DNA from: Sinorhizobium meliloti
GTDB taxonomy: Bacteria > Pseudomonadota > Alphaproteobacteria > Rhizobiales > Rhizobiaceae
Assembly: GCF_017876815.1 (NCBI RefSeq)
Contig: NZ_JAGIOS010000003.1
Coordinates: 90,001-122,000, forward strand
DNA: 32,000 nucleotides
Direction of reading: 5' to 3'
Of the stretch, positions 4,546-20,877 are shown one piece after another; the stretch's first letter is position 1, and each line of letters opens with the position of its first letter. The notes beneath the pieces were generated by a model, which was not told the DNA's origin, ran no database searches, and saw only the letters and a program-made list of their open reading frames with translations. A program made the translations under genes and the position numbers.

Positions 4546-4872
4546 GTGACCACTCCCATACCGCGTGTGATGGTTCCGGGCTCGGCGACAAAAAACGAAG
4601 TGTTCACGGTCAAGGCCATCATCCAGCACCAGATGGAGACGGGGCTGCGCACCGATTCCACGGGCAAGACGATCCCGCGGAAGATCATCAATCAGTTCGT
4701 CTGCCGTTACGGCGGAGTCGAGGTCTTCCGTACCGATCTGCACGAAGCCGTCTCGGCCAATCCGTTCCTTGAGTTCCAGTTGCTCGCGACGGGAAACGGT
4801 CTTCTTGAGTTCTCCTGGCGGGAGGACGGCGGCGCGACCTATTCGCTGTATCACGACATAGTGGTCACCTGA
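4546..4872 (+). CDS. soxZ: SoxZ sulfur carrier complex subunit
   Basis: 108 aa. VKAIIQHQMETGLRTDSTGKTIPRKIINQF and AVSANPFLEF match the conserved SoxZ core. GTG start preceded by AGGAGG at 5 nt. Confidence 0.85.
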   Translation: MTTPIPRVMVPGSATKNEVFTVKAIIQHQMETGLRTDSTGKTIPRKIINQFVCRYGGVEVFRTDLHEAVSANPFLEFQLLATGNGLLEFSWREDGGATYSLYHDIVVT

Positions 4873-4873
4873 C

Positions 4874-5245
4874 ATGAAGCGGGAACGGGCGGCCGCGACC
4901 GTCTCGCGTGCGAAGGGCCTCGCAGCCGAAATCCGGTGGTTGCTCGGTATTTCGCTTTGCGCGATCCTCCTGTTTCCCGAAAGGTCCGCTCCTGCGGAAG
5001 TGAGCCAAGGCGCGCAGATCGCCGCGACCTGCGCGTCCTGTCACGACCCGACTGGCGGCGGGCTGGCCATCCCGCCGATTGCGGCATTGGACGAACGGGC
5101 TATCGTGAAAGCCATGCTCGCCTTTCGTGCAAGTGAAAGCCCCAGCCATGTGATGCATGCGGTCGCATTGTCGCTCAGTGACGACGAGCTGGCCGCGACA
5201 GCGCGCTATCTCGCTGACAGAGCCAAAGCCGGGAGGCAGCCGTGA
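4874..5245 (+). CDS. Monohaem c-type cytochrome, FccA/SoxE-like small subunit of sulfide dehydrogenase
   Basis: One CxxCH (CASCH) after a signal-like hydrophobic segment. Class-I cytochrome c layout. Starts 1 nt after the soxZ stop and overlaps the next gene by GTGA, so translationally coupled to the flavoprotein. Confidence 0.75.
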   Translation: MKRERAAATVSRAKGLAAEIRWLLGISLCAILLFPERSAPAEVSQGAQIAATCASCHDPTGGGLAIPPIAALDERAIVKAMLAFRASESPSHVMHAVALSLSDDELAATARYLADRAKAGRQP

Positions 5246-6516
5246 CGGATTGGACGCGTCGCCAGATCGGCGCCCTGGCCGGAGGAGCGCTGCTGGCGGT
5301 GGCTGCACCACACACTGTTCGCGGTCAGGGACGGGCTAAGGTTGTAGTGATCGGCGGCGGCATCGGCGGCGCAACGGTTGCCCGATACCTCGGCGACATG
5401 AAGTCAATTGACGTCACACTGATCGAACCGAACTCCACCCACGTCACCTGCTTCTTCAGCAGCCACTACCTTGCCGGTCTTCGCTCGCTCGCCTCCCTGA
5501 CTTTCGGCCTGGAGACGCTGGCCGAAGGCCACGACATAACGATCATCCGCGACAGCGCCGTGGCGATCGACCCCGCCGGAAGGGCTGTCGAGCTTCGCGG
5601 CGGCACAAAGCTCTCCTATGACCGCCTCGTCGTCGCCCCGGGGATCGCCTTCAAGTTCGGCGAGATCGAGGGCTATGATGAGGACGCGGCAAAGATCATG
5701 CCGCATGCCTGGATTGCCGGACCCCAGAGTGAACTGCTGCGCCGGCAGCTCGAAAGCATGGACGACGGCGGTGTGTTCGTTATCGCTGCGCCTCCAAACC
5801 CGTTCCGCTGCCCGCCAGCCCCATATGAGCGGGCCTCGCTGGTCGCTTACTATTTCAAACAGTTCAAACCGAAATCGAAGATACTCATTCTCGACGCGAA
5901 GGATCAGTTTTCGGGTCAGGAACTGTTCCAGGATGCGTGGTCGCGTCACTATCCGGGCATAATTGAATGGCTACCTTCTCAGTTCACCGGGGCCATCAAA
6001 GCCGTAAATGTCGCGGCGCGATCGGTGGTCACAGAAGGCGAGACGTTCAGGGCGGCAGTCGCCAATATTATTCCTGCCCAGAAGGCGGGCCTCATCGGCG
6101 AGAAGGCAGGTCTTACGGACGCATCCGGCTGGTGCCCGGTCGATCCAGTGACGTTCGAGTCGACGTTGCAGCCCGGCATCCATGTCGTAGGCGACTCAAT
6201 TATCGGCGGCGACATGCCGAAGTCTGCCTTTTCTGCCAACAGCCAGGCCAAAGCATGCGCTTTTGGCATTGCGGCTTCCCTCACGGGTTCGCCTCAGTTT
6301 CCGCCGCACCTGTTCAACTCGTGCTACACGTTTCTAGCGCCCGACGACGCTTTCACCAATGCCCTTACCTTCGCACCCGAGGGCGGAAGGATAAAAACCG
6401 TGAAAATGTTCATCAGCAAGGTGGGCGAGAGCGCTGAGGTCCGCCGCCGCACCGCCCTTCACGCCGTGGGCTGGTATTCCGCCTTCACTGCAGACGTGTT
6501 CGGCGGTGGCCCCTGA
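5242..6516 (+). CDS. fccB: Flavocytochrome c sulfide dehydrogenase flavoprotein subunit (FccB/SoxF family)
   Basis: Tat signal TRRQIGALAGG. FAD fold KVVVIGGGIGGATVARYL. Family-typical FRCPPAPYERASLVAYYFK and PKSAFSANSQAKACA. Confidence 0.85.
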   Translation: MTDWTRRQIGALAGGALLAVAAPHTVRGQGRAKVVVIGGGIGGATVARYLGDMKSIDVTLIEPNSTHVTCFFSSHYLAGLRSLASLTFGLETLAEGHDITIIRDSAVAIDPAGRAVELRGGTKLSYDRLVVAPGIAFKFGEIEGYDEDAAKIMPHAWIAGPQSELLRRQLESMDDGGVFVIAAPPNPFRCPPAPYERASLVAYYFKQFKPKSKILILDAKDQFSGQELFQDAWSRHYPGIIEWLPSQFTGAIKAVNVAARSVVTEGETFRAAVANIIPAQKAGLIGEKAGLTDASGWCPVDPVTFESTLQPGIHVVGDSIIGGDMPKSAFSANSQAKACAFGIAASLTGSPQFPPHLFNSCYTFLAPDDAFTNALTFAPEGGRIKTVKMFISKVGESAEVRRRTALHAVGWYSAFTADVFGGGP

Positions 6517-6519
6517 TGG

Positions 6520-6767
6520 AATGCCTGGGGCTGCCGTTGGCCGCCGGGAGGATCGGCTGCGGGAATAGCACTGCGGCGGCAACCGACGAGATTGGAGCGG
6601 AACGCCAGAGGAGATTGGTGAGGATCGTCCGGCGAACCGCGCGGGCCACGTCGACGTCCAAGGCAACATCCAAACCCGCTGTCGGTAAGACGAGTGCGGT
6701 CTCTGCTAAAACATGCCGCCCCCTGCCAGTGCCAGTTCGGGTTCACGCAAGGATCGCCGTCGCCGCT
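6520..6767 (-). pseudogene. Relic of the 3' end of a ccoI/fixI-like P1B-type ATPase paralogue
   Basis: Minus-strand translation ..VDVARAVRRTILTNLLW..QPILPAA parallels the intact CcoI C-terminus ..VDVARAVRRTILANLMW..QPILAAA (20.5-20.7 kb). My hand DNA alignment of rc(6601-6670) against 20541-20612 gives 54/66 identical positions with one 1-nt gap. Weaker resemblance continues upstream over the GSATDLARETAGLVL and GDG regions. No start codon and broken frames. The relic is cut off by the fccB 3' end. Confidence 0.6.
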
Positions 6768-6787
6768 CAATCGAGACAGCGGCCGTA

Positions 6788-7258
6788 CTAGTACTTGCCC
6801 GGCTGCAGCACTGAACCGCTGTTGGACCAGGTAATGTATGCTTCGAGCGCCTTCATTGCCTCGGATTCGGGATCGATCTTCGCCCCTTGGTTCGGCTTCT
6901 CGATGCACCAGTTGATCATGTCGCGGAGGGTCGCGAACTTGGCCATCTGCGCCTGGAACTTCGGGAAGGATTGCGGGTGGGTGTCCGATGCCATCGGATG
7001 ACACATCGCGCAAGCCATGCCGGTTTTCGAGAGGTCGTCGGCAACGCCCATCGCTTCGGCCGTTGCGGCGTCGCCATGAAAGAGGAGGTCTCCTTTTCTT
7101 ACCTCCTCCATGAATGCTTCCTGGTAGAGCTTCAATTGCTCCGGCTTTACCGGATCTTTATGGGCGCTGCTCGGCCCCGCGAAAACGGCGGCAATGGCAA
7201 TTCCCCCCACCAGGCTGAAGCGCCGCAGTGAACAGCGGATTTTCGAGTGGGTTGTCAT
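6788..7258 (-). CDS. Secreted monohaem c-type cytochrome
   Basis: Start moved to the ATG at 7258 (MTTHSKIR..), preceded by GGAGGAAGG. The 224-aa track ORF would overlap the upstream gene. Signal peptide ..IAAVFAGPSSA. Single CAMCH haem site. C-terminal WCIEKPNQGAKIDPESEAMKALEAYI. Confidence 0.8.
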   Translation of the reverse strand: MTTHSKIRCSLRRFSLVGGIAIAAVFAGPSSAHKDPVKPEQLKLYQEAFMEEVRKGDLLFHGDAATAEAMGVADDLSKTGMACAMCHPMASDTHPQSFPKFQAQMAKFATLRDMINWCIEKPNQGAKIDPESEAMKALEAYITWSNSGSVLQPGKY

Positions 7259-7271
7259 GACCCTTCCTCCG

Positions 7272-8408
7272 CTAGTATGGCCACATGTTGTCGGCGATCC
7301 TTGGGCGAATAACCTCCGAAACATGCTTGTCATGGTCTTCGGGGGACTGCACGAAGACTTCCTTGCGCCCCCACATGATATATTCCGTTTCCAACTGGTC
7401 GTTGGCCGCCACGTCGATCTTGCTCCAGCCGACTCCATCATAGGGATCGCCGGGGTCGACACGGATCATCGGCTTGGTGAGCTTCGGCAAGCCTTCCGGC
7501 GCATAGGGCCACGGCCAGGACGTGGCTAGCATGCCGATCGAACGCAATGTGCCGATCTCGTTGTAGAGGACCTGGTGCACGTGACCATGAATGTTCGTGA
7601 CCTTGGCATAGGGTTTCAGCACCTCATGGACTTCGCGCCAGTCACGCACCCAGAAGTTCCACGGTGGATAATATTCGTAGAGCGGATTGTGACTGAAGAT
7701 GACCACGGGTCTTGCCTTATCCCAGTCGGCCAAGGTCTTTTCCATCCAGTCGAGCTGGTCCCGACCGACACCGGCCCATGGCCCGGCGACTGTACCGTCC
7801 AGCGTGGCCATGTGGCCCATGCGCTCCTCGGGCGTCATATTCTTTGCAGTCCAGTAGTCCGGTCCGCGGCTGACGGTATCGAGGCCGATGAAGCGCACGC
7901 CCTTGTGGTCGAAGGTCCAGTTGGGCTGCCCAAACAGTTCGCCCCATTTCTTGCCCATATCGAGATACCAGTCGTGCTCGCCTGGGATGTAGTGTTTCGG
8001 GATCGTGATCACCTTGAGTAGATCTACGCCGAGTTCAAGCTCTTCGATCTTTCCGAGCTGGGCGAGGTCACCACCGAAGATCAGGAAATCTGCAGGGGGA
8101 TCCATCGCTTGGACTTCCTGCGCCGCACGCACGACTTTGTCGACGAAGCGTGTGTTAAGGGATCTGGGATAGAGATGGGTGTCGGAGATCCAGGCAAACT
8201 TGAACGGCGCCTCGGCGGCATTCGCGATATCGAGCGTGTTCAGCAGAGGCCACCATGCAAAGGCCTGGCCCACAGTTGCTGCGCCAAATACCAATGACCC
8301 GTGAATGAATGTGCGGCGGGTAATTTTCAATGAGTCGTCGGGCCGAACCCCTTCGGGTTGCAGCACGGAATGCATTTCGCGGCGAATGCGGTCAAGTTCG
8401 TCAGACAT
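7272..8408 (-). CDS. Tat-exported metallophosphoesterase (calcineurin-like fold)
   Basis: Start at 8408 (MSDELDR..), preceded by GGAGGAGA. Twin-arginine signal ITRRTFIHGSLVFGAATVGQAFA. Complete metallophosphoesterase motif set: ISDTH, GGDLAQ, GEHD, SHNP, GHVH. Confidence 0.85.
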   Translation of the reverse strand: MSDELDRIRREMHSVLQPEGVRPDDSLKITRRTFIHGSLVFGAATVGQAFAWWPLLNTLDIANAAEAPFKFAWISDTHLYPRSLNTRFVDKVVRAAQEVQAMDPPADFLIFGGDLAQLGKIEELELGVDLLKVITIPKHYIPGEHDWYLDMGKKWGELFGQPNWTFDHKGVRFIGLDTVSRGPDYWTAKNMTPEERMGHMATLDGTVAGPWAGVGRDQLDWMEKTLADWDKARPVVIFSHNPLYEYYPPWNFWVRDWREVHEVLKPYAKVTNIHGHVHQVLYNEIGTLRSIGMLATSWPWPYAPEGLPKLTKPMIRVDPGDPYDGVGWSKIDVAANDQLETEYIMWGRKEVFVQSPEDHDKHVSEVIRPRIADNMWPY

Positions 8409-8519
8409 GACGGTTCTCCTCCCAGGAGGCCCGAAAGAAAAACTCGGCCCCACAGAGGCAGACATGGTGCGTAGGCCACGTCAGTTCTTTTCTTGTTTTT
8501 GTTGCGTAACTTTATCACA

Positions 8520-9239
8520 CTACTTTTTCTTAAGCTCGATATCGAGCGTCGTGGCTTTTCCGCCTTCAACGCTGACGGACATTTCCGTTGGCCCGATGAA
8601 GGGCTGCACCGCAACGAGTTTATACTGTCCGGGAGGAACATCCGTTATCGAGTACTTTCCGTCGGGCCCGGTCACCGCGTAGTAGGGATTATCCACGACG
8701 AAAATCCATCCCTCCATCCAACCATGCGCGTCGCAGTCGATGCGCACTGTACCCGTCCGGGGTAATTCGACCGGTATGCGCTGCCCCTTGTTTGGAAGGG
8801 CCAGGTTAAAGGCGGTACGCTTGCCGTAATAGCCGTGCGTGTTATGAAGCACCGGGTCCGAGTTGACGACGTCGAGCGGTCCTGCGGCGATCACCTGCAC
8901 CTGAGGTTCAAAACGGCATTTCTCGTTGTCGAGTTCAGGGGTCTTGCCAGGCGTCGGCCATTCTTTTCCGGATGCCACCTCGACAAGATAAATGACCGCA
9001 CTCTCGACCGCTTGATTGGCACCCACGCGGATCAGCGGCTCATCCCGCGGCTCTCCGCAAACCTCAACATCTTTGGTCGGGATGATCTTCTTCATCGGGA
9101 CATTGTCACGAAAGACGACGGTGCCCTCGATGGACCCGCCTCCGGTGACAGCGCTTACCTCATAGGAAAGCGCAGGGGGCGCGGTCATGATAACTGCAGC
9201 AGTAATCAGAAACTCAGAGAAGAAGCGGTGCTTTACCAC
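8520..9239 (-). CDS. Secreted cupredoxin-like protein with carboxypeptidase-regulatory-like beta-sandwich domain
   Basis: GTG at 9239 follows GGGAGG at 6 nt. Signal-like N-terminus ..AAVIMTAPPALS. Candidate type-1 copper ligands: H in SDPVLHNTHG plus CDAHGWM (C-x2-H-x2-M, amicyanin-like spacing). C-terminal YYAVTGPDGKYSITDVPPGQYKLVAV is typical of CarboxypepD_reg domains. The rest of the 483-aa track ORF is antisense to sco. Confidence 0.7.
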   Translation of the reverse strand: MVKHRFFSEFLITAAVIMTAPPALSYEVSAVTGGGSIEGTVVFRDNVPMKKIIPTKDVEVCGEPRDEPLIRVGANQAVESAVIYLVEVASGKEWPTPGKTPELDNEKCRFEPQVQVIAAGPLDVVNSDPVLHNTHGYYGKRTAFNLALPNKGQRIPVELPRTGTVRIDCDAHGWMEGWIFVVDNPYYAVTGPDGKYSITDVPPGQYKLVAVQPFIGPTEMSVSVEGGKATTLDIELKKK

Positions 9240-13143: not shown

Positions 13144-13511
13144 CTCATCCCGCCGGTTCAGAGTGGTAGAGCTCTTCCGTGACAAATAGGAGGCGAGAGA
13201 CGTTCTCGGCGCCCGCCATGGAGTAAGCTCGATGGCTAAACCGGTCCAGTCTGCAGTCCTCTCGCGACGCGCCCTGCAACGGCGCGACATTTCCAACCAG
13301 ACGATGGCTGCTAGATGTAGCTGTACTCGACCGGCCGTGGCAGAGAAGCTGGATGCGGTGGCGGATGATCGGGATCATCTCGCGGCGACAGCCCTAGAGG
13401 GGCCAATGGGCGACGCCGCTATGCGCAGCAATATCGGCCGCATCACCGGTTATCGGCGGTCCAAATCGTTATGGCGAAGCGCGATGCGCGCCGATCCCGC
13501 TCGCATCGTTC

Positions 13512-13754
13512 TCACGGCTCGCGTTCAGGAAGGTCGAAGTTGAGCTGCAACATTCGCGCTATGTTTATCAGAATCGTCTCACAGACTTTCTCTTGATTAG
13601 GATCGAGATATTTGACAGTCCAGTTTGCCCCGTTCTCCTTGGTTTCGAGCCGCTGAATCACAAAATCGGTGACGTGCTCGCAGCCCGGTTCCTTATGAAG
13701 ATCCGCGAGGATCAATTCCTTAAGCTCCGAAGCTTCCTTTGTATGTCTTTGCAT
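13512..13754 (-). CDS. Hypothetical small protein (80 aa), AT-richer than its surroundings
   Basis: ATG at 13754 preceded by GGAAGGAGA at 6 nt. Soluble-looking sequence MQRHTKEASELKELILADLHKEPGCEHVTDFVIQRLETKENGANWTVKYLD.. with no family recognised. Confidence 0.45.
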   Translation of the reverse strand: MQRHTKEASELKELILADLHKEPGCEHVTDFVIQRLETKENGANWTVKYLDPNQEKVCETILINIARMLQLNFDLPEREP

Positions 13755-13888
13755 GGCCGCTCTCCTTCCGGATGACAACTTTCGACGCATCGCTCAACTC
13801 CATAGTCGCGATCTACGTCATGGCTAGACATGGTACTGTTTTGGCTTTATTTTTAAAAGTTGCCCCTCGTTCTCATCAGGTGGCTTCT

Positions 13889-14042
13889 ATGACGATGCGC
13901 GAGTTGATGAGCGGGTTACTGGCGCATCGAGAAGTCGAACCAGGGCGAAAAGATCGATCCCGTGATGGAGGCGATGAAGGCGCTCGAGACGTACATCACC
14001 TGATCGAACACCGGCTCGGAGTTGGTGCCACGCAAATACCAG
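13889..14042 (+). pseudogene. Relic of the 3' third of a paralogue of the cytochrome c gene at 6788-7258
   Basis: The relic reads TMRELMSG, then a frameshift, then YWRIEKSNQGEKIDPVMEAMKALETYIT*SNTGSELVPRKY. The intact protein reads TLRDMINWCIEKPNQGAKIDPESEAMKALEAYITWSNSGSVLQPGKY. In-frame TGA at 14001-14003 where the intact gene has TGG. No haem site and no start codon. Confidence 0.65.
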
Positions 14043-14152: not shown

Positions 14153-15607
14153 TTGGCAGAGACTGGGATGGAGCTGCGCGGCAACTTTGCGAACGTTGAC
14201 CTGGATGCGCTGGTCGACCACCGGGTCGTGCGGACCTGGCTCTATTTCGGCATGTTCTGGCTGATGGTGACGCCATCCGTTGGCGTTTTGATATCGAGCA
14301 CCTTCAACTATCCCGACTATCTCGGCTCGGGGAACCTCGAGCTCACCTTCGGCCGGCTGCGCCCGGTCCACGTCAACGGTGTTATCTTCGGCGCCTTCTC
14401 GACGCTTTTCATAGGCCTTTGCTACTATCTCGTGCCGCGTCTGTCGGGGGTGCGGGTGATATGGTCAGAGTGGTCGGTTCTTCTCGCATGGGTCTGGAAC
14501 ATCGCAACACTTGCCGGTTTGGTCGGCTTGCTGATCGGCGACAGTGACGGTTTGGAAGCCGGAGAGCTTCCGCTATACGCTAAAGTCGCATTCTTCATCG
14601 TGGTGGGTGTTGCTACCGCGCAGTTCCTGATCACGATCAGTCGAAGGCTCGAGCCAGCGATCTATGTCGCGCTGTGGTACCTGATCGCCACTTTCGTGTG
14701 GACGACGATGAACTTCGTGCTTGGAAGCTTCATCCTGCCATACACGATCTCGGGCATCAACAGCGCCGCCTTCCATGGCCTCTATCTCCACTACATCGTT
14801 GGGCTGTGGCTAACGCCCGCAGGCTACGTGATCATCTACTATTTCCTGCCGGTCAGCGCGCGAAATCCGCTCTATGCCCATAAGCTCTCGCTGGTAGGCT
14901 TCTGGTCCCTGGCATTGTTCTACCCGTTCGTCGGCATCCACCATTACCTCTACAGCCCGATCGCCGACTGGGCCGAGACCTTGGCCGTCGTCACGTCGAT
15001 GCTGCTGATCATTCCGGTGTGGACGGTGCTGGTGAACTTCTTCGGCACCATGATGGGCAAGTGGCATGAGTTCGGCAGAAACCTGCCGGCGAAGTTCCTG
15101 ATCATGGGCTCGCTCATGTATCTCGTCGGCTGCTTCCAAGGCTCGACCGAGGCGCTGCGGCAGGTGCAGCAGCCGACCCATTTCACCGATTTCGTCATCT
15201 CGCATTCGCATCTTACCGTATTCGGCACCTTCGTCGTCTGGGCGATGGGGGGCCTCGTCTATACTTGGCCGCGGCTGTTCGGGCGCGAACTCTGGTCATT
15301 CAAGCTCGGCAACTGGTCGTTCTGGCTGATCACAGTCGGCATTGCGACCATGGGCCTGGTTCTCACAGCGGGCGGCCTGCAGCAGGGTTACCAATGGATG
15401 AATGGCGTCGAATGGCTCGACTCCCTCGTCTGGGTGAAGCCCTACTGGCTGGCGCGGACCCTGGCAGGTATCAGCATGGATATCGGCATTTCGCTGCTGG
15501 TGGTGAATCTGATGTTGACTGCGCTGACCAGCCCGGCGGCTGAGGCGCGACGCGTCGGCAGGCCGGAGGGGCCTATCCAGGCCCCGGCGGGAGGGCTCGC
15601 ACGGTGA
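14153..15607 (+). CDS. ccoN: cbb3-type (C-family) haem-copper oxidase subunit I, CcoN/FixN-like, divergent
   Basis: 12-TM protein. FGRLRPVHVNGVIFG (low-spin haem His). AAFHGLYLHY (CuB His). YPFVGIHHYLY has Y-x5-HH, the C-family cross-link Tyr plus two CuB His. ISHSHLTVFG carries the two haem His. TTG at 14153 lies 8 nt after GGGGAGG. Alternative start ATG 14168. Confidence 0.9.
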   Translation: MAETGMELRGNFANVDLDALVDHRVVRTWLYFGMFWLMVTPSVGVLISSTFNYPDYLGSGNLELTFGRLRPVHVNGVIFGAFSTLFIGLCYYLVPRLSGVRVIWSEWSVLLAWVWNIATLAGLVGLLIGDSDGLEAGELPLYAKVAFFIVVGVATAQFLITISRRLEPAIYVALWYLIATFVWTTMNFVLGSFILPYTISGINSAAFHGLYLHYIVGLWLTPAGYVIIYYFLPVSARNPLYAHKLSLVGFWSLALFYPFVGIHHYLYSPIADWAETLAVVTSMLLIIPVWTVLVNFFGTMMGKWHEFGRNLPAKFLIMGSLMYLVGCFQGSTEALRQVQQPTHFTDFVISHSHLTVFGTFVVWAMGGLVYTWPRLFGRELWSFKLGNWSFWLITVGIATMGLVLTAGGLQQGYQWMNGVEWLDSLVWVKPYWLARTLAGISMDIGISLLVVNLMLTALTSPAAEARRVGRPEGPIQAPAGGLAR

Positions 15608-17268
15608 ACGTTCGCTTCTTCGCGCTGTTCGCCGGCGTCTTCTGCATCACCCTTGCGGTGATCACGCAGGGCGTGCTGCCCTTCGTGGAGCCGTCCTCGC
15701 GAACTACGCGCGTGACCTCGGTGGTGCGCACGGATTTCGGCCAGCTGAAATGGATGGTTTCAGAGGCGACGGACTACACCGAGCAGCAGCTTCGCGGCCG
15801 CAATATCTATCTGCGCGAAGGCTGCTGGTACTGCCATTCCCAATTCGTGCGGCCAGTGACCGGCGAGATCCGCCGCTGGGGACCGGTGAGCGAGGCCGGC
15901 GAATACGCCTATGACGTGCCGCACCTGTTTGGCACACGCCGGATCGGACCAGACCTGACGCGCGTCGGCCTGAAATACAGCGACGAATGGCACCTGGCGC
16001 ACTTCTACGATCCGCGGATGCTGGTGCCGGACTCGATAATGGCGCCGTATCGCGGCCTCTTCCACGAGCCCGATGCAGCTGTCCGTATCGTTGACGACGG
16101 CGCTGGCAATCGGACCCTGGAAAGGACAGAGGTCACCGAGGGCATGTTCGACTTCGACAGCCAGCAGGCGATCCAGCTGACGCCGAATGCATCCGGGTTG
16201 CTGTTCGTGCCGCTGAAGGCGCGCGATAGAAAGCCGATCATCCTGACGCCGAACGACGAATACGCAGGCGAAACCGTCAGCATCGCGACGGAAACGGAAT
16301 CGGTGGCGGCGCTCATTTCTTACCTCCAGAAGCTCGGCACGAACCGAGGTAAATGGCGCGATCTTTTCGAGCCGCAAAGCCTGGAGGTCATGGATGCGAC
16401 GATGCCGCGCTCCGAGGAATGGATTGCTTATGGCAAGGAAGTCTATGAGCGCCGCTGCATCGGTTGCCACGGTGCCAAGGGCGACGGCAATGGGCCGGCC
16501 GCCACCTTCATGTATAACCAGCGGCCTAGGGATTTCACGTCCGCAGTCTTCAAGTTCAGGTTGACAAAGGAGCCCCTGCCCACGGACGGCGACATGCTGC
16601 GCACCATTACTCGCGGCATCCGCGGCACGGCAATGCCCCCTTGGTACGACCTGCCGCTCAACGATCGGCTGGCGGTGATCCAGTACATCAAGTATGAGCT
16701 AGCGGTTGACCGTTCCAATCCCGCCAATCCTTACGCTTTCTTCGTCGAGGAACCGCCTGGCCCACCCTTGTATATCGGGCGGCCGCCGATCCCGTCCCAG
16801 ACGATGCTGGACCGTGGCAAGGAGATTTGGCAGGTGGCGAAATGCTGGGAGTGCCATGGCCAAGGCGGCAAGGGAGACGGCGAGAAGGCTGCCGGCCTCA
16901 AGGATGATCTCGGGTTCGTCAGCGTGCCGGCCGACCTCACCAGCGGCCAATTCAAGTCTGGCCCGGCCGTCGAAGACATCTTCCGGACGATAACTACGGG
17001 CCTTAGCGGCACGCCGATGCCGTCCTACCGGAATGCATTTCCGGACGAGGACCGGTGGGCGCTTTCCTATTTCGTGGTAGCGCTTTCCGCCTATAAAGAC
17101 CCGCTCTCGCTGCAGCCGCTCCCGATCGATAAGGAGGCCCGCGCGGCGCTGAACGATCTGGAACTGGTCGCTGACAAGCCTGAGCGAGCGTATGTACCCG
17201 ATCCGTCGGTGCCAGCGTCCGGCCCGCCAGCGCCGCCTGCCGAAGAACAGGCACCCGCCGGAGGTTAG
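15604..17268 (+). CDS. Fused CcoO (monohaem) plus CcoP-like dihaem cytochrome c subunit
   Basis: GTGA overlap with ccoN. The N-terminal anchor plus EGCWYCHSQFVRP, GTRRIGPDLTRVGLKYSDEWHLAHFYDPR, SIMAPY and ALISYLQKLG make a full CcoO. Two further class-I haem domains follow (CIGCHGAKGDGNG and CWECHGQGGKGDG), then a Pro/Ala-rich tail. Three CxxCH in one 554-aa chain. Confidence 0.85.
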   Translation: MNVRFFALFAGVFCITLAVITQGVLPFVEPSSRTTRVTSVVRTDFGQLKWMVSEATDYTEQQLRGRNIYLREGCWYCHSQFVRPVTGEIRRWGPVSEAGEYAYDVPHLFGTRRIGPDLTRVGLKYSDEWHLAHFYDPRMLVPDSIMAPYRGLFHEPDAAVRIVDDGAGNRTLERTEVTEGMFDFDSQQAIQLTPNASGLLFVPLKARDRKPIILTPNDEYAGETVSIATETESVAALISYLQKLGTNRGKWRDLFEPQSLEVMDATMPRSEEWIAYGKEVYERRCIGCHGAKGDGNGPAATFMYNQRPRDFTSAVFKFRLTKEPLPTDGDMLRTITRGIRGTAMPPWYDLPLNDRLAVIQYIKYELAVDRSNPANPYAFFVEEPPGPPLYIGRPPIPSQTMLDRGKEIWQVAKCWECHGQGGKGDGEKAAGLKDDLGFVSVPADLTSGQFKSGPAVEDIFRTITTGLSGTPMPSYRNAFPDEDRWALSYFVVALSAYKDPLSLQPLPIDKEARAALNDLELVADKPERAYVPDPSVPASGPPAPPAEEQAPAGG

Positions 17269-17271
17269 CGC

Positions 17272-17496
17272 ATGCTCGGTTTTGAAGTTACCGGACCCTA
17301 TGTGGGCGCCATGCTGATGAGCCTGGCGGCCCTGTTCTTGTTCATCTGGGGCGTCCTGTCAGGCGCGTTGAGCGGCACCGACAAAGCCGCCAACGGGTTT
17401 TTTGAAAGGGAAATGGAAAATGAGCGATCTGCAGAGCAGCGATCCGGAGAGCCCGAGGCATCCGGAACTGGAGGTGCGTCAAAGCTCGCACCCTGA
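17272..17496 (+). CDS. Small single-TM protein, CcoS/FixS-like (alternatively CcoQ-like)
   Basis: ATG lies 3 nt after the ccoOP stop. One TM helix followed by FIWGVLSGALSGTDKAAN, resembling the CcoS pattern W-x3-SGQ-x-DD..A. Charged tail. The 3' 77 nt overlap the next ORF. Confidence 0.45.
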   Translation: MLGFEVTGPYVGAMLMSLAALFLFIWGVLSGALSGTDKAANGFFEREMENERSAEQRSGEPEASGTGGASKLAP

Positions 17497-17644
17497 ACTG
17501 GAGGACTATGCCGGCGGCCTGATACAGGCGCGTGTGGGGTTCATTCCGCTATGGCTTCTCGTCGTCTACATGCTGCTGTTCGGCTGGGGCCTGTATTACA
17601 TGTATGTCTATTGGGGCGGGCTCGGCCCCGGCCGTCTGTTCTAG
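17420..17644 (+). CDS. Small membrane protein resembling the detached N-terminal anchor domain of CcoP (FixP_N-like)
   Basis: ATG at 17420. The acidic N-terminus contains HPELE twice. EDYAGGLIQARVGFIPLWLLVVYMLLFGWGLYYMYVYW resembles the DGI..P.P.WW..F..T.....Y pattern of FixP N-terminal domains. No haem site. Confidence 0.45.
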   Translation: MSDLQSSDPESPRHPELEVRQSSHPELEDYAGGLIQARVGFIPLWLLVVYMLLFGWGLYYMYVYWGGLGPGRLF

Positions 17645-17677
17645 AAGACTGTCGCAAGGACCGTTAAGGCAGGAGTG

Positions 17678-17782
17678 ATGGAGATGTTGGTAGCCAAAAT
17701 TCTCCTTGGGGTCGCCGCATTGAACCTCCTTTTCCTGGCCTTCGAGGTGGCGATAAACGTGCTTCGTCTTTATTTCGGCTGA
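17678..17782 (+). CDS. Unannotated 34-aa single-TM mini-ORF
   Basis: AGGAG lies 2 nt before the ATG (an alternative ATG is two codons in). MEMLVAKILLGVAALNLLFLAFEVAINVLRLYFG. Below the ORF-track cutoff. Fits exactly into the gap in the operon. Confidence 0.3.
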   Translation: MEMLVAKILLGVAALNLLFLAFEVAINVLRLYFG

Positions 17783-17796
17783 CATAGGAGCAGCGG

Positions 17797-17919
17797 ATGC
17801 TACAGGACACCGTCTTCAAGCTCGCTGACGCCGGCTTGCCGCAGATGCTTGGGTTCCTCATCTATGGCGGCTGCACCGTCGGCTTTATCATCTATCTTTT
17901 CTATCTTGTGCGGCAATAG
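17797..17919 (+). CDS. Unannotated 40-aa single-TM mini-ORF (CcoQ/FixQ-like layout)
   Basis: TAGGAG lies 6 nt before the ATG. MLQDTVFKLADAGLPQMLGFLIYGGCTVGFIIYLFYLVRQ. A short polar N-terminus followed by one TM helix, as in FixQ. Confidence 0.35.
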   Translation: MLQDTVFKLADAGLPQMLGFLIYGGCTVGFIIYLFYLVRQ

Positions 17920-17938
17920 CGGCGCAGCGAAAACGCCA

Positions 17939-18667
17939 ATGTTCTACTACCTCGTGATCTTCGCCGCTGGATTTGCAGGCAGCTTTCATTGCATCGGCAT
18001 GTGCGGCGGCTTTGCCTGCGCGTTGGGCCGCGATCAGCGAGGCGGAGGCGCAACCCTCCTTCGCCACCTGCTCTATAATACCGGCCGATTGACAACCTAT
18101 TGCTTTCTGGGCGGGCTCGCCGGTGCGGTCGGTCAGGTCATCTGCACCACGCAAGGTGTAGCGGCGGCGCCGCTCTTTAACGGCTCCCTCGACATCGCCC
18201 AACGAATTCTCGCGATCGTCGCTGGCCTGCTCATGATTGCCATGGCGTTGCAGTTCTTCGGCTTGTTGCAGGTCTTTCATCGCCTTGCGATCGGATTTGG
18301 CGGCAGCACATTTGCTTTGTCCCTGCGCAGTCTGGTGACGGCCCGGAGTAGCGCCGCGCCGCTCGCCTTTGGCGTTTTCAACGGCTTCCTGCCATGTCCC
18401 CTGGTTTATGCCTTCGCCGCCCAGGCGGCGAGCACCGCCGGAGCGCTTCCCGGGTTCCTCGTCATGGCTTGGTTCGGATTGGGAACCTTCCCCGCGATGC
18501 TGATGATGGGCGGCGTTGGCCGGATACTCGGGCCAGCCGGGCGGCGGCGCGGCGTGCGGCTGGCTGGTGGCTTTATTCTTTTTCTCGGTCTCATCACGCT
18601 CGGCCGTGGTCTCCTGCCTTCTCACGCGCATATCGGCCTTGCCTGGCTGGGCGGACATTCCACATGA
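17939..18667 (+). CDS. DsbD_2 / TauE-SafE-like multi-pass membrane protein with paired-cysteine motifs
   Basis: Start set to ATG 17939 (MFYYLVIFAAGFAGSFHCIGMCGGF). HCxxMCGG motif in TM1 and FLPCPLVY in a later TM. About 6 TM helices. Its stop overlaps the ccoI start (ATGA). Confidence 0.75.
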   Translation: MFYYLVIFAAGFAGSFHCIGMCGGFACALGRDQRGGGATLLRHLLYNTGRLTTYCFLGGLAGAVGQVICTTQGVAAAPLFNGSLDIAQRILAIVAGLLMIAMALQFFGLLQVFHRLAIGFGGSTFALSLRSLVTARSSAAPLAFGVFNGFLPCPLVYAFAAQAASTAGALPGFLVMAWFGLGTFPAMLMMGGVGRILGPAGRRRGVRLAGGFILFLGLITLGRGLLPSHAHIGLAWLGGHST

Positions 18668-20877
18668 CTGCGCATGATCATATCCTCTGTAGCCATTGTT
18701 CGCTGCCCGTTGGCGTGCGCCCAATGGAGCGCAGGCTCGACGGTGAGGCTTGCACGTTCTGCTGCTACGGCTGTTGCATCGCCTTTCAGGTGAAGAGCGG
18801 CAGACACGAAGAATGGGAAGCCGCCTGGCTTCTGATCCAGCTTGGCGTGGGTGGCTTTCTCTCCATGAACATCATGATGTTCAGCCTCCTCCTCTATTCG
18901 GACGCATTCACCGGGGTCGATGCGGGCGTGCTGCCGTGGATTCACTTTTTGCTCTGGATCTTCGCGACGCCGGCGGTGGTGCTTCTCGGCGGACCCTATC
19001 TGCGCGAAATGTGGCTCAATGGCATGCAGGGACGAGTGACATCGTCGGCACTCATCGTGCTTGGCGTCGCTGCCGCTTACCTCTACTCGGCGTTTGCCGT
19101 GTTCGAGGGCAGCACGCATGTCTATTTCGACACCGCCGTGATGGTGCTGATGCTATTTACCGTTGGCCGCTATCTCGAGGCTGTTGGCCGCGCAAGGGCG
19201 GCGCGCGACCTCGAACCTCTTCTGGCCGCAGAAAGCGAGAGCGCGACCGTGGTCGATGGCGCGGCAGAGATCCGCGGTCCGGTGCGGGAGGTGTCGGCCG
19301 GCATGCTGGTGCGGGTTCGGCCAGGCGAGCGCATTCCGGTCGACGGCGTGGTTGTCGAGGGGGAATCGAACACCGATGAAGCCGTGATTACCGGAGAAAG
19401 CCGGCAAGTGACAAAGGGCGCCGGCTCCAAGGTGATTGCCGGCAGCATCAATATCGACGGCCCGCTTCTGATCCAAAGCAGCGCTGACGGAACCGCAACC
19501 CGCTGGGCGAGGATTTGCCGGTCGGTGCGCGAAGCGCTCGGCCGTCGCAGCCCAACCCAGCGCCTTGCCGATCGCGTCGTCGGCGTGTCCGTGCCGCTCG
19601 TCCTTGCCCTCGGCGGTCTGACGATCGTTTACTGGGCGCAGTCATTGCCGTTCGATCGGGCGTTGCTAATTGGCCTCTCGGTACTGGTGGTTGCCTGTCC
19701 TTGTGCCGTCGGCCTCGCTGCTCCGATGGCGACATCACTCGGCATCGGCCGGCTGGCGCGGCACGGCTGCCTCGTCCGCGATCCCGGCGTACTCGAGACC
19801 CTCGCACGTGTACGGTTACTCGCCTTCGACAAGACCGGCACTCTGACGGCGGGCAAAGCACGTCTAGTCGGCGTCTACGGCGAGGAGGTCGGCTTTGACC
19901 AAGTGCTGGCGCGCGCCGCCGGTCTGGAGCGCCTTTCCGAGCATGGTCTGGCGCAGGCCATCACGGCAGCCGCCGCTCAGCGGGACATCACGCCGCTCGT
20001 CACCAGCGATGTTCGGACGGTTCCCGGCCGTGGCATCCGCGGCAGCGCCGAAGGCCGGCCCGTGGCGGCAGGGAACGGCAGATTGATGAATGATCTGGGC
20101 TGGCCGCTTCCCCCGTCGCTGGCCGAGCGTGCGCGGTCGTTGGAGGCGAGCGGTCATTCGGTGGTCTATGTGGGTTGGGGCGAGCGGGTTCACGCCGTGC
20201 TGTCGCTCGACGACTCACCGCTTCCCGAGGCGCAGGCCGCGATCGCGGCGCTGCGCAAGCGCGGGCTCGACGCCACGCTGTTGACCGGCGACCTGGCGCA
20301 AGCGGCGGAGCGGATCGCGGCCTTGGTTGGGATCAAGGACGTCCAAGCCGGCCTTTCGCCGGAGGCCAAACGGCTGGCGCTGGATCGGCTCCGCCATGAC
20401 CACGTTTCGGTGGCGATGGTCGGCGATGGGCTGAATGACGGACCGGTCCTGGCCGCCGCAGATATCGGTATCGCCGTCGGCTCCGCCACAGATCTCGCCC
20501 GCGAGACTGCAGGGCTCGTGCTGCCTGCGGATGGATTTTGGATGCTGCCCTGGATCGTCGACGTGGCCCGCGCGGTCCGCAGGACCATCTTGGCCAACCT
20601 TATGTGGGCGTTCGGCTACAACCTCGTCGCGCTGACGTTCGCAGCATTCGGACTTCTGCAGCCAATCCTTGCGGCGGCGGTCATGGCCGGCTCGAGCATC
20701 CTCGTTGTGGTGAATTCGCTGCGGCTGGAGCGGCTGCCCGATCCTGTTCCAGCGCTCATGCCGGCGCAACGATCCGACATCAATGTGGAGCGCACACACA
20801 ACGTAAGCGGCATTTCCGCGATGGCCGGGCCGGCCGTCGGGCATGACCTTGCCACCCGTGGTCCGCTCGATCCTTAA
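18664..20877 (+). CDS. ccoI: Copper-translocating P1B-type ATPase, CcoI/FixI-like
   Basis: Start at ATG 18664 (MTAHDHILCSHCSLP..CTFCCYGCCIAF), giving the Cys-rich CcoI-type N-terminal metal-binding domain with no HMA domain. TGES, CPC in TM6, DKTGTLT, GDGLNDGP. N-x6-YN and M-x2-SS-x5-N form the Cu(I) signature. SEHGL replaces the usual SEHPL. Confidence 0.9.
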   Translation: MTAHDHILCSHCSLPVGVRPMERRLDGEACTFCCYGCCIAFQVKSGRHEEWEAAWLLIQLGVGGFLSMNIMMFSLLLYSDAFTGVDAGVLPWIHFLLWIFATPAVVLLGGPYLREMWLNGMQGRVTSSALIVLGVAAAYLYSAFAVFEGSTHVYFDTAVMVLMLFTVGRYLEAVGRARAARDLEPLLAAESESATVVDGAAEIRGPVREVSAGMLVRVRPGERIPVDGVVVEGESNTDEAVITGESRQVTKGAGSKVIAGSINIDGPLLIQSSADGTATRWARICRSVREALGRRSPTQRLADRVVGVSVPLVLALGGLTIVYWAQSLPFDRALLIGLSVLVVACPCAVGLAAPMATSLGIGRLARHGCLVRDPGVLETLARVRLLAFDKTGTLTAGKARLVGVYGEEVGFDQVLARAAGLERLSEHGLAQAITAAAAQRDITPLVTSDVRTVPGRGIRGSAEGRPVAAGNGRLMNDLGWPLPPSLAERARSLEASGHSVVYVGWGERVHAVLSLDDSPLPEAQAAIAALRKRGLDATLLTGDLAQAAERIAALVGIKDVQAGLSPEAKRLALDRLRHDHVSVAMVGDGLNDGPVLAAADIGIAVGSATDLARETAGLVLPADGFWMLPWIVDVARAVRRTILANLMWAFGYNLVALTFAAFGLLQPILAAAVMAGSSILVVVNSLRLERLPDPVPALMPAQRSDINVERTHNVSGISAMAGPAVGHDLATRGPLDP

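What the first reader, a model, noticed from the sequence alone, without database searches (positions are those of the whole stretch)
6520..6767. Hidden relic of a second ccoI-type ATPase gene filling the 'intergenic' space between fccB and the cytochrome c gene
The 271 bp between the convergent fccB and cytochrome c genes is not featureless spacer. On the minus strand it reads as the last roughly 80-100 codons of a CcoI paralogue: ..AETALVLP.., a 1-nt deletion, then VDVARAVRRTILTNLLW..QPILPAA. This closely matches CcoI at 20.5-20.7 kb, with 54/66 nt identical in the best stretch by my hand alignment. It starts a few nt after the cytochrome c stop and is truncated where the fccB coding sequence begins to overlap it. 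That implies the cytochrome c gene was once followed on the same strand by oxidase-operon sequence, and that the sox/fcc block abuts, and may have been inserted into, that relic.
Basis: seen in the sequence. Interest (0 to 1): 0.7.

Follow-up and report, generated by a model that had tools for sequence, protein, structure and literature searches.

The report
Leftover of a displaced copper-pump gene
The "spacer" between fccB and the cytochrome c gene on this Sinorhizobium meliloti megaplasmid is the decayed tail of the plasmid's original oxidase operon, which was deleted after a Mesorhizobium-type copy of the same operon arrived nearby; this is an ordinary kind of genomic fossil, but an unusually legible one.

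Summary
Window 6540-6674 (minus strand) matches the 3' end of the ccoI-like P1B ATPase at 20537-20678: 75% over 142 nt, E 6e-20.

The interpretation needs revising. In S. fredii, Rhizobium gallicum, Phyllobacterium, Mesorhizobium and 34 of 80 species-representative loci, the cytochrome c gene is followed by ccoN, a ccoO/P fusion, TauE and the ATPase. The ATPase 3' end abuts or overlaps fccB tail-to-tail. So the sox/fcc block is the ancestral neighbour, not an insertion.

The relic is what remains of the resident ATPase:
- A ~6.3-kb deletion joined ccoN codon 4 to ATPase codon ~612, at a CCGC microhomology.
- The relic is 84.7% identical to the S. fredii ATPase but only 72.6% to the window's own ATPase.

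The intact operon at 13918-20842 is the newcomer. It is 94-95% identical in nucleotides to Mesorhizobium/Pseudaminobacter loci and 70-73% to S. fredii. It carries matching scars: a cytochrome c 3' relic at 13918-14039, a CPDreg start stub, and a deleted SCO gene.

Five Sinorhizobium lineages share the scars, each with its own further erosion, and one S. meliloti strain has an IS element inside the relic.

Verdict: a non-functional pseudogene remnant of xenologous operon displacement with complementary loss. It is well resolved and of modest interest.

The parts
6459..6536 (-). Relic of the C-terminal tail of the resident ATPase (..QPQAFHQGPPPNTSAVKAEYQPTA*), ending at the original stop codon 6459-6461. 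The last 58 nt lie antisense inside the 3' end of fccB (5242-6516).
   Evidence: The same tail..QAFHQEPSPNTSAVKAEYQPTA*, ends the intact ATPases of S. fredii and R. gallicum. blastn gives 83% identity to S. fredii L014 8413-8319. The pairwise alignment is, and the ORF 6459-7013 translation.
6539..6695 (-). Relic of resident ATPase codons ~612-670 (end of the P-domain and the last transmembrane helices). It carries several 1-nt indels, and an S. meliloti-specific ~85-nt deletion follows at 6537/6538.
   Evidence: 83.5% identity over 170 nt to the S. fredii ATPase, E 3e-41. 75% to the window's own ATPase, E 6e-20. Identity table and tree. Other Sinorhizobium relics keep the segment that S. meliloti lost.
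6696..6709 (-). Stub of the resident ccoN 5' end (TTA GCA GAG ACC GC; the TTG start has mutated to TTA), plus the deletion junction. CCGC at 6696-6699 is the microhomology shared by ccoN and the ATPase.
   Evidence: Alignment to S. fredii ccoN start TTGGCAGAGACCGC|GACT and ATPase GAAACCGCCGC|ACTCGTCTT. Sinorhizobium sp. 8-89 has the same junction, and S. americanum and Ensifer IC3342 have eroded forms of it.
6710..6787 (-). The original cytochrome c-ccoN intergenic spacer, retained downstream of the intact cytochrome c gene.
   Evidence: Window 6830-6696 aligns colinearly with S. fredii L014 15134-15001 at 78.5%, E 1e-26.
6788..7258 (-). Intact resident cytochrome c gene (SoxA/TsdA-type haem domain). 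In the ancestral operon it is the gene just upstream of ccoN.
   Evidence: Pfam PF21342. 90% aa identity to S. fredii and 76-78% to Mesorhizobium.
13428..13821 (+). Donor-type scraps at the left end of the imported cluster: 41 nt from upstream of the donor hemA, then the donor's small hypothetical ORF (13512-13790, minus strand). The donor SCO gene is deleted at the 13821 junction.
   Evidence: 88% and 92-94% identity to Mesorhizobium/Pseudaminobacter L031, L035 and L038, colinear. Junction ..TCAT|GGCTAGAC. S. americanum has the same scars.
13820..13924 (+). Donor SCO/CPDreg intergenic region plus the first ~10 codons of the donor CPDreg gene (ATG at 13895, MRELMSGL..). It is fused out of frame to cytochrome c codon ~117. 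It may now be the promoter for the imported ccoN operon; that is an inference.
   Evidence: 82-83% identity to L035/L038 7963-8070. Junction sequences.
13918..14039 (+). Relic of the 3' end of the donor's cytochrome c gene (WRIEKSNQGEKIDPVMEAMKALETYIT*SNTGSELVPRKYQ), with an in-frame TGA at 14001-14003.
   Evidence: 85/113 nt identical to the intact cytochrome c gene at 6788-6900, E 3e-17. Translation. tblastn E 7e-14. Contiguous with the donor-type ccoN block.
14153..20877 (+). Imported, intact ccoN (14153-15607), ccoO/P fusion (15604-17268), small ORFs, TauE/SafE (17939-18667) and P1B ATPase (18664-20877). Donor similarity ends at 20842, so the last ~12 codons of the ATPase form a new tail.
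   Evidence: 94-94.7% nt identity over 6.9 kb to Mesorhizobium ventifaucium, M. wenxiniae and Pseudaminobacter, against 70-73% to S. fredii. aa identities 93-97%. Pfam/NCBIfam hits. Tail comparison.

Best explanation
The 271-nt 'spacer' is a non-functional pseudogene remnant, left when a resident operon was displaced by a foreign homologue.

1. Starting state. The ancestor of this pSymA region had the widespread cluster soxY-soxZ-fccA-fccB converging on ATPase-TauE-ccoO/P-ccoN-cytc-MPE-CPDreg, with SCO-hemA-groEL beyond.
2. Import. A homologous cluster from a Mesorhizobium-like donor was acquired. It spanned at least from upstream of the donor's hemA into its fccB, more than 10.7 kb, and it now lies inverted just past the resident groEL.
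3. Complementary loss. The two redundant copies then lost different genes. The imported copy lost SCO, CPDreg, MPE and the 5' part of cytochrome c, leaving stubs at 13820-14039. The resident copy lost ccoN through most of the ATPase in a single ~6.3-kb microhomology-mediated deletion, in which CCGC joined ccoN codon 4 in frame to ATPase codon ~612.
4. Decay. What remains at 6459-6709 has since eroded neutrally. The tail is better preserved than the rest; over its last 58 nt it is also the coding sequence of fccB on the other strand.

Shown directly: the homologies, the synteny, the shared junctions, and which copy each sequence is closest to. Inferred: the order of events, the integration mechanism, and the lack of function.
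For: Homology is real:
- blastn E 6e-20 and BLASTP E 4e-9. The shuffle control reached at most 37/66 against 49/66 observed.

The intact junction exists elsewhere:
- It is present in Phyllobacterium zundukense (annotated), two S. fredii strains, R. gallicum and Rhizobium sp. 007.
- 34 of 80 species-representative loci have the full layout, and 54 of 80 have cytochrome c followed directly by ccoN.

The window aligns colinearly to S. fredii on both sides of one breakpoint:
- 6830-6696 matches the cytochrome c end, spacer and ccoN start; 6699-6539 matches ATPase codons ~612-670; 6536-6442 matches the ATPase tail and fccB end.

The relic is the resident type:
- It is 84.7% identical to S. fredii, 72.6% to the window's own ATPase and 72-73% to Mesorhizobium.
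- The relics nest inside the S. fredii/Ensifer clade, and each is closer to S. fredii than to the window's ATPase in 500/500 bootstraps.

The functional block is foreign:
- 94-94.7% nt identity over 6.9 kb to Mesorhizobium/Pseudaminobacter, against 70-73% to S. fredii.
- The flanking genes show the opposite pattern: MPE is 96.5% aa identical to S. fredii and 87% to Mesorhizobium; groEL is 86% against 71%.
- The block carries colinear scraps of donor flanks. In S. americanum it also runs ~125 nt into a donor-type fccB end.

It happened once and then decayed:
- The same junctions occur in S. meliloti, S. americanum, Sinorhizobium sp. 8-89 and Ensifer IC3342. S. psoraleae has lost nearly all of the relic. 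Each lineage has its own further indels.

No sign of present function:
- The ORF is broken differently in each lineage.
- ISRm2011-2 is inserted at TA 6707-6708 in strain ml28.
- There is no Rfam hit, no promoter-like or terminator-like site, and the RNA fold z-score is 0.10.
Against: - No genome with both clusters still complete was found, so the intermediate stage and the order of the deletions are inferred.
- The imported block is not at the position of the lost genes. It lies about 7 kb away and inverted, and the integration mechanism is unknown.
- The cytochrome c relic on its own does not discriminate donors: 81-83% to Mesorhizobium, 85% to a Phyllobacterium, 81% to S. fredii. Its donor origin rests on its contiguity with the block.
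- The cluster is mosaic within Mesorhizobium and Phyllobacterium too (M. prunaredense: ccoN 78%, ATPase 94%). 'Mesorhizobium-like' therefore names the closest sampled relatives, not a proven donor.
- The derived layout occurs in species that, from my own recollection of Sinorhizobium phylogeny, are not each other's closest relatives. That implies later spread of the whole region or ancestral polymorphism, which I did not resolve.
- No expression data were available.
Confidence: 0.88

Rival explanations
1. A second, extra CcoI-paralogue gene once followed the cytochrome c gene. Insertion of the sox/fcc block then truncated it, leaving only its 3' end.
For: The relic does resemble the 3' end of the ATPase gene and does lie next to fccB.
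Against: soxYZ-fccAB converging on the ATPase 3' end is the conserved ancestral layout in 34 of 80 loci across several genera. The ATPase's natural stop codon and tail are still present, antisense inside fccB, exactly as in S. fredii, so fccB did not cut the gene. The missing part is the 5' 84% of the gene together with ccoN-ccoO/P-TauE, removed by a deletion whose other end lies in ccoN.
Confidence: 0.03
2. Purely intragenomic origin. The resident operon was duplicated in inverted orientation beyond groEL. The two copies then lost complementary parts, and no horizontal transfer was involved.
For: Both relics are about 75% identical to their intact partners in the same window. Reciprocal loss after duplication is a common pattern.
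Against: Block B is 94-95% nt identical to Mesorhizobium/Pseudaminobacter over 6.9 kb, but only 70-73% to the S. fredii cluster and about 73% to the resident relic. Block B is flanked by a small ORF and intergenic scraps that match only the Mesorhizobium-type cluster. The resident flanking genes show the opposite affinity.
Confidence: 0.05
3. The region is retained for a present function, such as a small two-helix membrane protein made from the ccoN'-'ATPase fusion frame (open from 6742 to 6488), an sRNA, or a terminator for the convergent fccB and cytochrome c transcripts.
For: The deletion junction is in frame. An 85-codon frame is open in S. meliloti, and one genome annotation calls a 62-aa ORF there (L010). 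The sequence is 99.4-100% conserved among S. meliloti strains.
Against: The within-species conservation equals that of the flanks. Across species the frame is broken by different indels and deletions, and S. psoraleae lacks almost all of it. The inherited TTG start is TTA in S. meliloti. An IS element is tolerated inside the region. There is no Rfam match, no terminator-like or promoter-like site, and the fold z-score is 0.10.
Confidence: 0.04

Closest known systems
Xenologous gene displacement and mosaic operons (Omelchenko et al. 2003, Genome Biology, 'Evolution of mosaic operons by horizontal gene transfer and gene displacement in situ'; cited from my own knowledge, and the phrase appears in papers found)
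   Same: Resident operon genes are replaced functionally by horizontally acquired homologues from a distant lineage. The neighbouring genes keep the host's own phylogenetic affinity, so the working gene set is a mosaic.
   Different: The displacement is not in situ. The foreign genes sit about 7 kb away in the opposite orientation. Both the resident and the imported copies left readable scars, which the classical cases inferred from trees usually lack.
Reciprocal (complementary) gene loss after duplication, as described for post-duplication genomes (general concept, from my own knowledge)
   Same: Two redundant copies of a multigene unit each lose a different subset, so one complete set survives, split between two places.
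   Different: Here the 'duplicate' is a xenologue brought in by transfer, not a paralogue from internal duplication. The unit is a bacterial operon cluster on a megaplasmid.
CcoI/FixI, the P1B-type copper ATPase encoded with cbb3 oxidase genes (ccoGHIS/fixGHIS) and needed for cbb3 maturation (established knowledge of the family)
   Same: The intact gene at 18664-20877 is a P1B heavy-metal/copper ATPase (TIGR01525 at 511 bits, TIGR01511 at 447 bits) lying downstream of ccoN and ccoO/P. The relic is homologous to its last ~115 codons.
   Different: The operon here lacks recognisable ccoG/ccoH/ccoS and has a TauE/SafE-family gene instead. No CcoI-specific model exists in the libraries searched, so 'CcoI' is a context-based label. 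The relic lacks every catalytic motif.
Microhomology-mediated (illegitimate-recombination) deletions that generate bacterial pseudogene fragments (general knowledge)
   Same: The breakpoints fall in 2-5 nt of shared sequence: CCGC at the ccoN/ATPase junction, AT at the SCO scar, and CTGG.G at the CPDreg/cytochrome c scar.
   Different: Nothing unusual, apart from the coincidence that the ccoN/ATPase junction is in frame and falls in a shared E-T-A peptide. That coincidence made the chimera read like a continuous ATPase sequence.

Membership tests
P1B-type (CcoI/FixI-like) ATPase gene, applied to the relic at 6459-6709 | Sequence homology to a P1B ATPase | tested here: met
   blastn E 6e-20 to the window's ATPase and E 3e-41 to the S. 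fredii ATPase. BLASTP E 4e-9.
P1B-type (CcoI/FixI-like) ATPase gene, applied to the relic at 6459-6709 | Complete ORF with the DKTGT phosphorylation site, the CPC transmembrane metal site and the GDGxNDxP hinge | tested here: not met
   Only the equivalent of codons ~612 to the end survives, with frameshifts and an ~85-nt internal deletion. All three motifs lie upstream of the breakpoint; in the intact copy they read AFDKTGTLT, ACPCAVG and VGDGLNDGP. No NCBIfam hit for the relic frame.
P1B-type (CcoI/FixI-like) ATPase gene, applied to the intact gene at 18664-20877 | Score above the curated cut-off for the heavy-metal P-type ATPase family, and a position in a cbb3 oxidase operon | tested here: met
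   TIGR01525 scores 510.7 bits (cut-off 346) and TIGR01511 scores 447 bits (cut-off 397). The gene lies downstream of ccoN and ccoO/P. A copper-delivery role for cbb3 was not tested.
Pseudogene / deletion remnant | It lies where relatives carry the intact orthologue, with colinear flanks on both sides | tested here: met
   34 of 80 loci have the full ancestral layout.
Pseudogene / deletion remnant | Disabling lesions and lineage-specific decay, with the reading frame not conserved | tested here: met
   The five derived genomes show different indels and secondary deletions. The start codon is mutated. One strain has an IS insertion.
Pseudogene / deletion remnant | No expression and no function | not testable with these tools
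   Only negative computational hints are available: no Rfam hit, no promoter or terminator consensus, fold z-score 0.10.
Xenologous gene displacement | The functional copy groups with a distant taxon while its neighbours group with the host's relatives | tested here: met
   Block B is 94-95% nt identical to Mesorhizobium/Pseudaminobacter and 70-73% to S. fredii. MPE is 96.5% aa identical to S. fredii against 87% to Mesorhizobium, cytochrome c 90% against 76-78%, and groEL 86% against 71%. The NJ tree of the ATPase 3' region is.
Xenologous gene displacement | Displacement in situ, with the foreign gene occupying the same operon slot | tested here: not met
   The foreign block lies beyond groEL, inverted, about 7 kb from the deleted slot.
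Functional small RNA or small ORF | Match to a known RNA family, a stable conserved structure, or a conserved reading frame | tested here: not met
   0 Rfam matches at E<=1. Fold z-score 0.10. The frame is broken differently in each lineage.

The most novel reading that the evidence does not exclude
The surviving gene set may be a working natural chimera. Resident CPDreg-MPE-SoxA-like cytochrome c and SoxYZ/FccAB would now depend on a cbb3-type oxidase and its copper ATPase imported from another family of bacteria, and the deletion scars would have been shaped by selection. One example is the retained donor SCO/CPDreg promoter region, which now lies about 230 nt upstream of the imported ccoN. 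If so, the locus records, scar by scar, how a multi-component respiratory and sulfur-oxidation module tolerates replacement of its oxidase core. It would also give a defined natural experiment on the interchangeability of cbb3 parts.
Probability: 0.45. Interest if true: 0.45.

Novelty: new member of a known kind. Interest (0 to 1): 0.3.

Why it matters
The finding explains an unannotated 271-nt gap on S. meliloti pSymA and corrects which oxidase-operon copy is native. The intact cbb3/ATPase genes of this accessory cluster are a recent import of Mesorhizobium type. The relic is the only trace of the original genes.

Because both partners of the exchange kept breakpoint-level scars, and five Sinorhizobium lineages share them, the locus is a clean teaching case of operon displacement by horizontal transfer followed by complementary loss. 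It could also serve as a phylogenetic marker for this pSymA region.

It has practical value for annotation. The gap should be labelled as a pseudogene fragment, and the 62-aa 'hypothetical protein' occasionally called there is spurious.

It does not reveal a new kind of biological system.

Tried and rejected
- Functional RNA or terminator. The Rfam scan of 6200-7100 found nothing. The promoter/terminator consensus scan found nothing. The RNA fold of 6517-6787 had a z-score of 0.10.
- FixK/Fnr-box search (TTGAT-N4-ATCAA, up to 2 mismatches). It gave no site in the retained promoter-like scraps, and the window-wide count was not clearly above chance: 16 sites against 8.6 expected, with 2 of 100 shuffles reaching that number.
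- Further relics inside the window. tblastn of all cluster proteins against the window at E<=1 found only the two relics. There is no fccB or sox relic after the imported ATPase in S. meliloti, although S. americanum has one.
- Homology for the DNA just right of block B (20843 onward) and just right of groEL (13143-13428). Neither matched the ancestral-layout or donor-type loci (S. fredii, Ensifer, Rhizobium, Phyllobacterium, Mesorhizobium); 13143-13428 has a counterpart only in derived Sinorhizobium loci (S. americanum in full, S. psoraleae in part). The integration mechanism therefore stays open.
- Literature searches. I searched for a description of this cluster or relic, and for the cluster's function. 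Nothing specific turned up. The AK21 paper discusses only the classical fixNOQP genes.
- NCBIfam on the relic frame gave no hit.
Full report
**1. What is in the window**

The window is Sinorhizobium meliloti megaplasmid pSymA. It is 100% identical to strains SM11 and RU11/001, and 99.4-99.8% identical to about 25 other strains.

ORF listing plus Pfam/NCBIfam and a public annotation of strain R28 give this gene map:
- RND pump, 11-3121
- TetR, 3161-3766
- soxY, 4075-4524
- soxZ, 4546-4872
- a small c-type cytochrome (fccA-like), 4874-5245
- fccB, 5242-6516
- on the minus strand, a SoxA/TsdA-type cytochrome c, 6788-7258
- on the minus strand, a metallophosphoesterase (MPE), 7272-8408
- on the minus strand, a carboxypeptidase-regulatory-domain protein (CPDreg), 8520-9239
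- SCO, 9483-10091
- hemA, 10088-11386
- groEL, 11503-13143
- ccoN, 14153-15607
- a ccoO/ccoP fusion, 15604-17268
- small ORFs
- a TauE/SafE protein, 17939-18667
- a P1B heavy-metal ATPase, 18664-20877

Between fccB and the cytochrome c gene, 271 nt are left unannotated.

**2. Checking the observation**

blastn of 6400-6900 against the whole window matched 6540-6674 to 20678-20537 on the opposite strand: 107/142 identical, 7 gap positions, E 6e-20. BLASTP of the open minus-strand frame 6488-6742 against the ATPase gave 31/59 identities, E 4e-9. The best ungapped 66-nt stretch is 49/66, while 100 shuffles never exceeded 37/66.

Window 13930-14042 on the plus strand is 75% identical (85/113, no gaps, E 3e-17) to the 3' end of the intact cytochrome c gene. 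It translates to WRIEKSNQGEKIDPVMEAMKALETYIT*SNTGSELVPRKYQ, with an in-frame stop. It lies about 110 nt upstream of ccoN.

So one copy consists of an intact cytochrome c gene followed by an ATPase 3' relic. The other consists of a cytochrome c 3' relic followed by an intact ccoN..ATPase operon.

**3. The intact junction in other genomes**

A plasmid of Phyllobacterium zundukense carries, fully annotated, soxY-soxZ-cytochrome-fccB converging on P-type ATPase - TauE - small ORFs - cbb3 subunit II - cbb3 subunit I - the cytochrome c - metallophosphoesterase - CPDreg. SCO-hemA-groL follow on the far side. The ATPase stop lies 8 nt from the fccB stop.

tblastn mapping shows the same layout in two S. 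fredii strains, Rhizobium gallicum and Rhizobium sp. 007.

I then scanned one genome per species, using an alignment of the cytochrome c protein. Of the 80 best loci, 34 have the complete layout and 54 have cytochrome c followed directly by ccoN. These include Ensifer, Sinorhizobium, Rhizobium, Mesorhizobium, Phyllobacterium, Bradyrhizobium and Methyloceanibacter.

The sox/fcc block is therefore the ancestral convergent neighbour of the ATPase, not something inserted into it.

In S. fredii and R. gallicum the ATPase actually ends inside fccB on the opposite strand, with the tail ..QAFHQEPSPNTSAVKAEYQPTA*. The window keeps the same tail..QPQAFHQGPPPNTSAVKAEYQPTA*, ending at a stop codon at 6459-6461.

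**4. Anatomy of the relic**

Against S. fredii CCBAU 45436, the minus strand of the window aligns in three colinear pieces:

| Window (minus strand) | Matches in S. fredii | Identity |
|---|---|---|
| 6830-6696 | end of cytochrome c, the ~80-nt spacer, first codons of ccoN | 78.5% |
| 6699-6539 | ATPase codons ~612-670 | 83.5% over 170 nt, E 3e-41 |
| 6536-6442 | ATPase tail / fccB end | 83% |

About 6.3 kb of the S. fredii sequence (L014 8671-15000) is missing between the first two pieces.

The breakpoint reads TTA GCA GAG ACC GC|A CTC GTC TTA. The corresponding ccoN sequence is TTG GCA GAG ACC GC|G ACT, and the ATPase sequence is GAA ACC GCC GC|A CTC GTC TTG. The deletion therefore joined the two genes at a CCGC microhomology, in frame.

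A second deletion of ~85 nt is specific to S. meliloti and removes the ATPase segment between 6539 and 6536. The inherited TTG start is now TTA.

**5. Which copy is native**

I aligned the ATPase 3' region from 18 intact genes and 4 relics. Identities over the relic-covered columns:

| Relic | to S. fredii | to the window's own ATPase | to Mesorhizobium |
|---|---|---|---|
| S. meliloti | 84.7% | 72.6% | 72-73% |
| Sinorhizobium sp. 8-89 (longer relic) | 89.9% | 74.1% | 74.6-75.0% |

In a neighbour-joining tree the Sinorhizobium sp. 8-89, Ensifer IC3342 and S. americanum relics fall inside the S. fredii/Ensifer clade; the very long S. meliloti relic branch is drawn at the midpoint root. The window's ATPase and its S. 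americanum counterpart fall inside Mesorhizobium. Each relic is closer to S. fredii than to the window's ATPase in 500 of 500 bootstrap resamplings.

Conversely, window 13918-20842 is 94.2-94.7% identical in nucleotides, over 6.9 kb, to loci of Mesorhizobium ventifaucium, M. wenxiniae and a Pseudaminobacter. It is only 70-73% identical to the S. fredii cluster. At protein level it is 93-97% identical to Mesorhizobium.

The resident flanking genes show the opposite affinity:

| Gene | aa identity to S. fredii | aa identity to Mesorhizobium |
|---|---|---|
| MPE | 96.5% | 87% |
| cytochrome c | 90% | 76-78% |
| groEL | 86% | 71% |

So the relic is what is left of the resident gene, and the intact operon is a horizontally acquired xenologue.

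**6. Scars in the imported copy**

Left of the imported ccoN the window carries colinear scraps of the donor's flanks:
- 13428-13468 matches the DNA upstream of the donor's hemA (88%).
- 13469-13821 matches a small hypothetical ORF that in Mesorhizobium lies between hemA and SCO (92-94%).
- The SCO gene is then missing, with the junction ..TCAT|GGCTAGAC.
- 13820-13924 matches the donor's SCO/CPDreg intergenic region plus the first ~10 codons of CPDreg (ATG at 13895, MRELMSGL).
- CPDreg, MPE and cytochrome c codons 1-116 are then missing, with the junction at a CTGG.G microhomology, out of frame.
- 13918-14039 is the cytochrome c 3' relic.

S. americanum CCGM7 has the same scars at the same donor coordinates. 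There the imported block also runs about 125 nt into a donor-type fccB 3' end.

The imported fragment therefore originally spanned at least from upstream of hemA into fccB, more than 10.7 kb of a complete homologous cluster.

In S. meliloti the donor similarity stops at 20842, so the ATPase has acquired a new 12-residue tail..AVGHDLATRGPLDP* instead of ..AVERS*.

**7. One event, then decay**

S. meliloti, S. americanum, Sinorhizobium sp. 8-89, Ensifer sp. IC3342 and S. psoraleae all have the derived layout.
- Sinorhizobium sp. 8-89 shows the identical ccoN/ATPase junction.
- S. americanum and IC3342 have small extra deletions over the junction.
- S. psoraleae has lost nearly the whole relic.
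- S. meliloti alone has the ~85-nt internal deletion.

Shared breakpoints combined with private erosion are what an unselected remnant should look like.

In S. meliloti strain ml28 an IS630-family element (ISRm2011-2) sits in the TA at 6707-6708, inside the former ccoN start codon.

The region has no Rfam match, no promoter-like or terminator-like consensus site, and no unusual RNA stability (z = 0.10).

**8. Mechanism**

Most likely, the ancestor of this pSymA region acquired a second, Mesorhizobium-type copy of the whole cluster, which came to lie inverted beyond groEL. Redundancy then allowed complementary loss through microhomology-mediated deletions. The resident copy lost ccoN..ATPase and the imported copy lost SCO..cytochrome c.

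The result is a single mosaic set: resident soxYZ-fccAB, CPDreg-MPE-cytochrome c and SCO-hemA-groEL, together with an imported oxidase, TauE and ATPase.

Keeping the donor's SCO/CPDreg intergenic region immediately upstream of the imported ccoN may preserve a promoter. That is an inference.

The homologies, the synteny, the junctions and the affinities are shown directly. The order of events, the integration mechanism and the lack of function are inferred.

**9. Comparison with what is known**

This is an instance of xenologous gene displacement producing a mosaic gene set. It differs from the classical 'in situ' form because the foreign genes sit about 7 kb away and inverted, and because both partners kept breakpoint-level scars. 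It also resembles reciprocal gene loss after duplication, with a transferred xenologue in place of a paralogue.

The ATPase is a P1B heavy-metal/copper ATPase by curated models. 'CcoI' is a label based on genomic context. The relic fails every test for being a gene.

I found no publication describing this relic or this cluster.

**10. Verdict**

The evolutionary reading is largely reversed: the relic is the native gene, the intact copy is the import, and sox/fcc is an old neighbour.

It is a new, well-documented member of a known kind of feature, a pseudogene remnant of operon displacement. Interest is modest, at 0.3.

Noticed in passing
window 22411/22412: About 148 nt present in S. meliloti R28 pSymA (L098 17814-17961) are missing here. 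The gap spans the ornithine cyclodeaminase 3' end and the threonine/serine dehydratase 5' end, so both ORFs are altered in this strain.
   Followed up: partly
window ~3701-3707 (TetR gene 3161-3766): About 80 nt present in strain ml28 (L011 3864-3943) are missing, which changes the 3' part of the TetR-family regulator between the RND pump and soxY.
   Followed up: partly
window 20843-21378: The DNA immediately after the imported block is unrelated to any of the homologous clusters. It is about 80% identical to an S. meliloti accessory plasmid, next to a type IV secretion coupling-protein gene (H61). This may be a trace of the vehicle, or of a later rearrangement. It also supplies a new 12-residue C-terminal tail to the ATPase.
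   Followed up: partly
L014 8336-8390, L015, L016, L017; window 6459-6516: In Sinorhizobium and Rhizobium the convergent ATPase and fccB genes overlap tail-to-tail by about 45-58 nt. In Phyllobacterium and Mesorhizobium they are separated by 8-25 nt instead.
   Followed up: partly
window 4075-20877 and loci L012-L097: The whole cluster is conserved as a block in 34 of 80 species-representative genomes, and in partial form beyond Alphaproteobacteria. It comprises SoxYZ, FccAB, a CPDreg protein, a Tat-signal metallophosphoesterase, a SoxA-like cytochrome c, a cbb3-type oxidase with fused CcoO/P, TauE, a P1B ATPase, SCO, HemA and GroEL. I found no paper describing it. It looks like an uncharacterised sulfur-oxidation/respiration module.
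   Followed up: partly
L073 and L075 (Methylobacterium planeticum, M. nigriterrae), about 10400-15700: These loci also have the cytochrome c gene directly followed by a convergent fccB, with groEL and a ccoO/P-like gene beyond. This looks like an independent rearrangement of the same cluster. I did not check it for relics.
   Followed up: no
S. meliloti plasmids CP140953.1 (H60) and NZ_CP021813.1 (H59): Some S. meliloti strains carry only part of the imported block. H60 matches from window ~18283 onward. H59 matches ~16389-21143 at only 96% and has no match at the relic locus; its only hit to the 6400-7300 query is an ATPase-like stretch (H41). This points to further deletions or a second allele within the species.
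   Followed up: no
L010 10586-10774 (equivalent to window 6485-6673, minus strand): One public gene call places a 62-aa 'protein' in the relic frame (MDVALDVDVARAVRRTILTNLLW...). It is a pseudogene fragment and should not be treated as a gene.
   Followed up: yes
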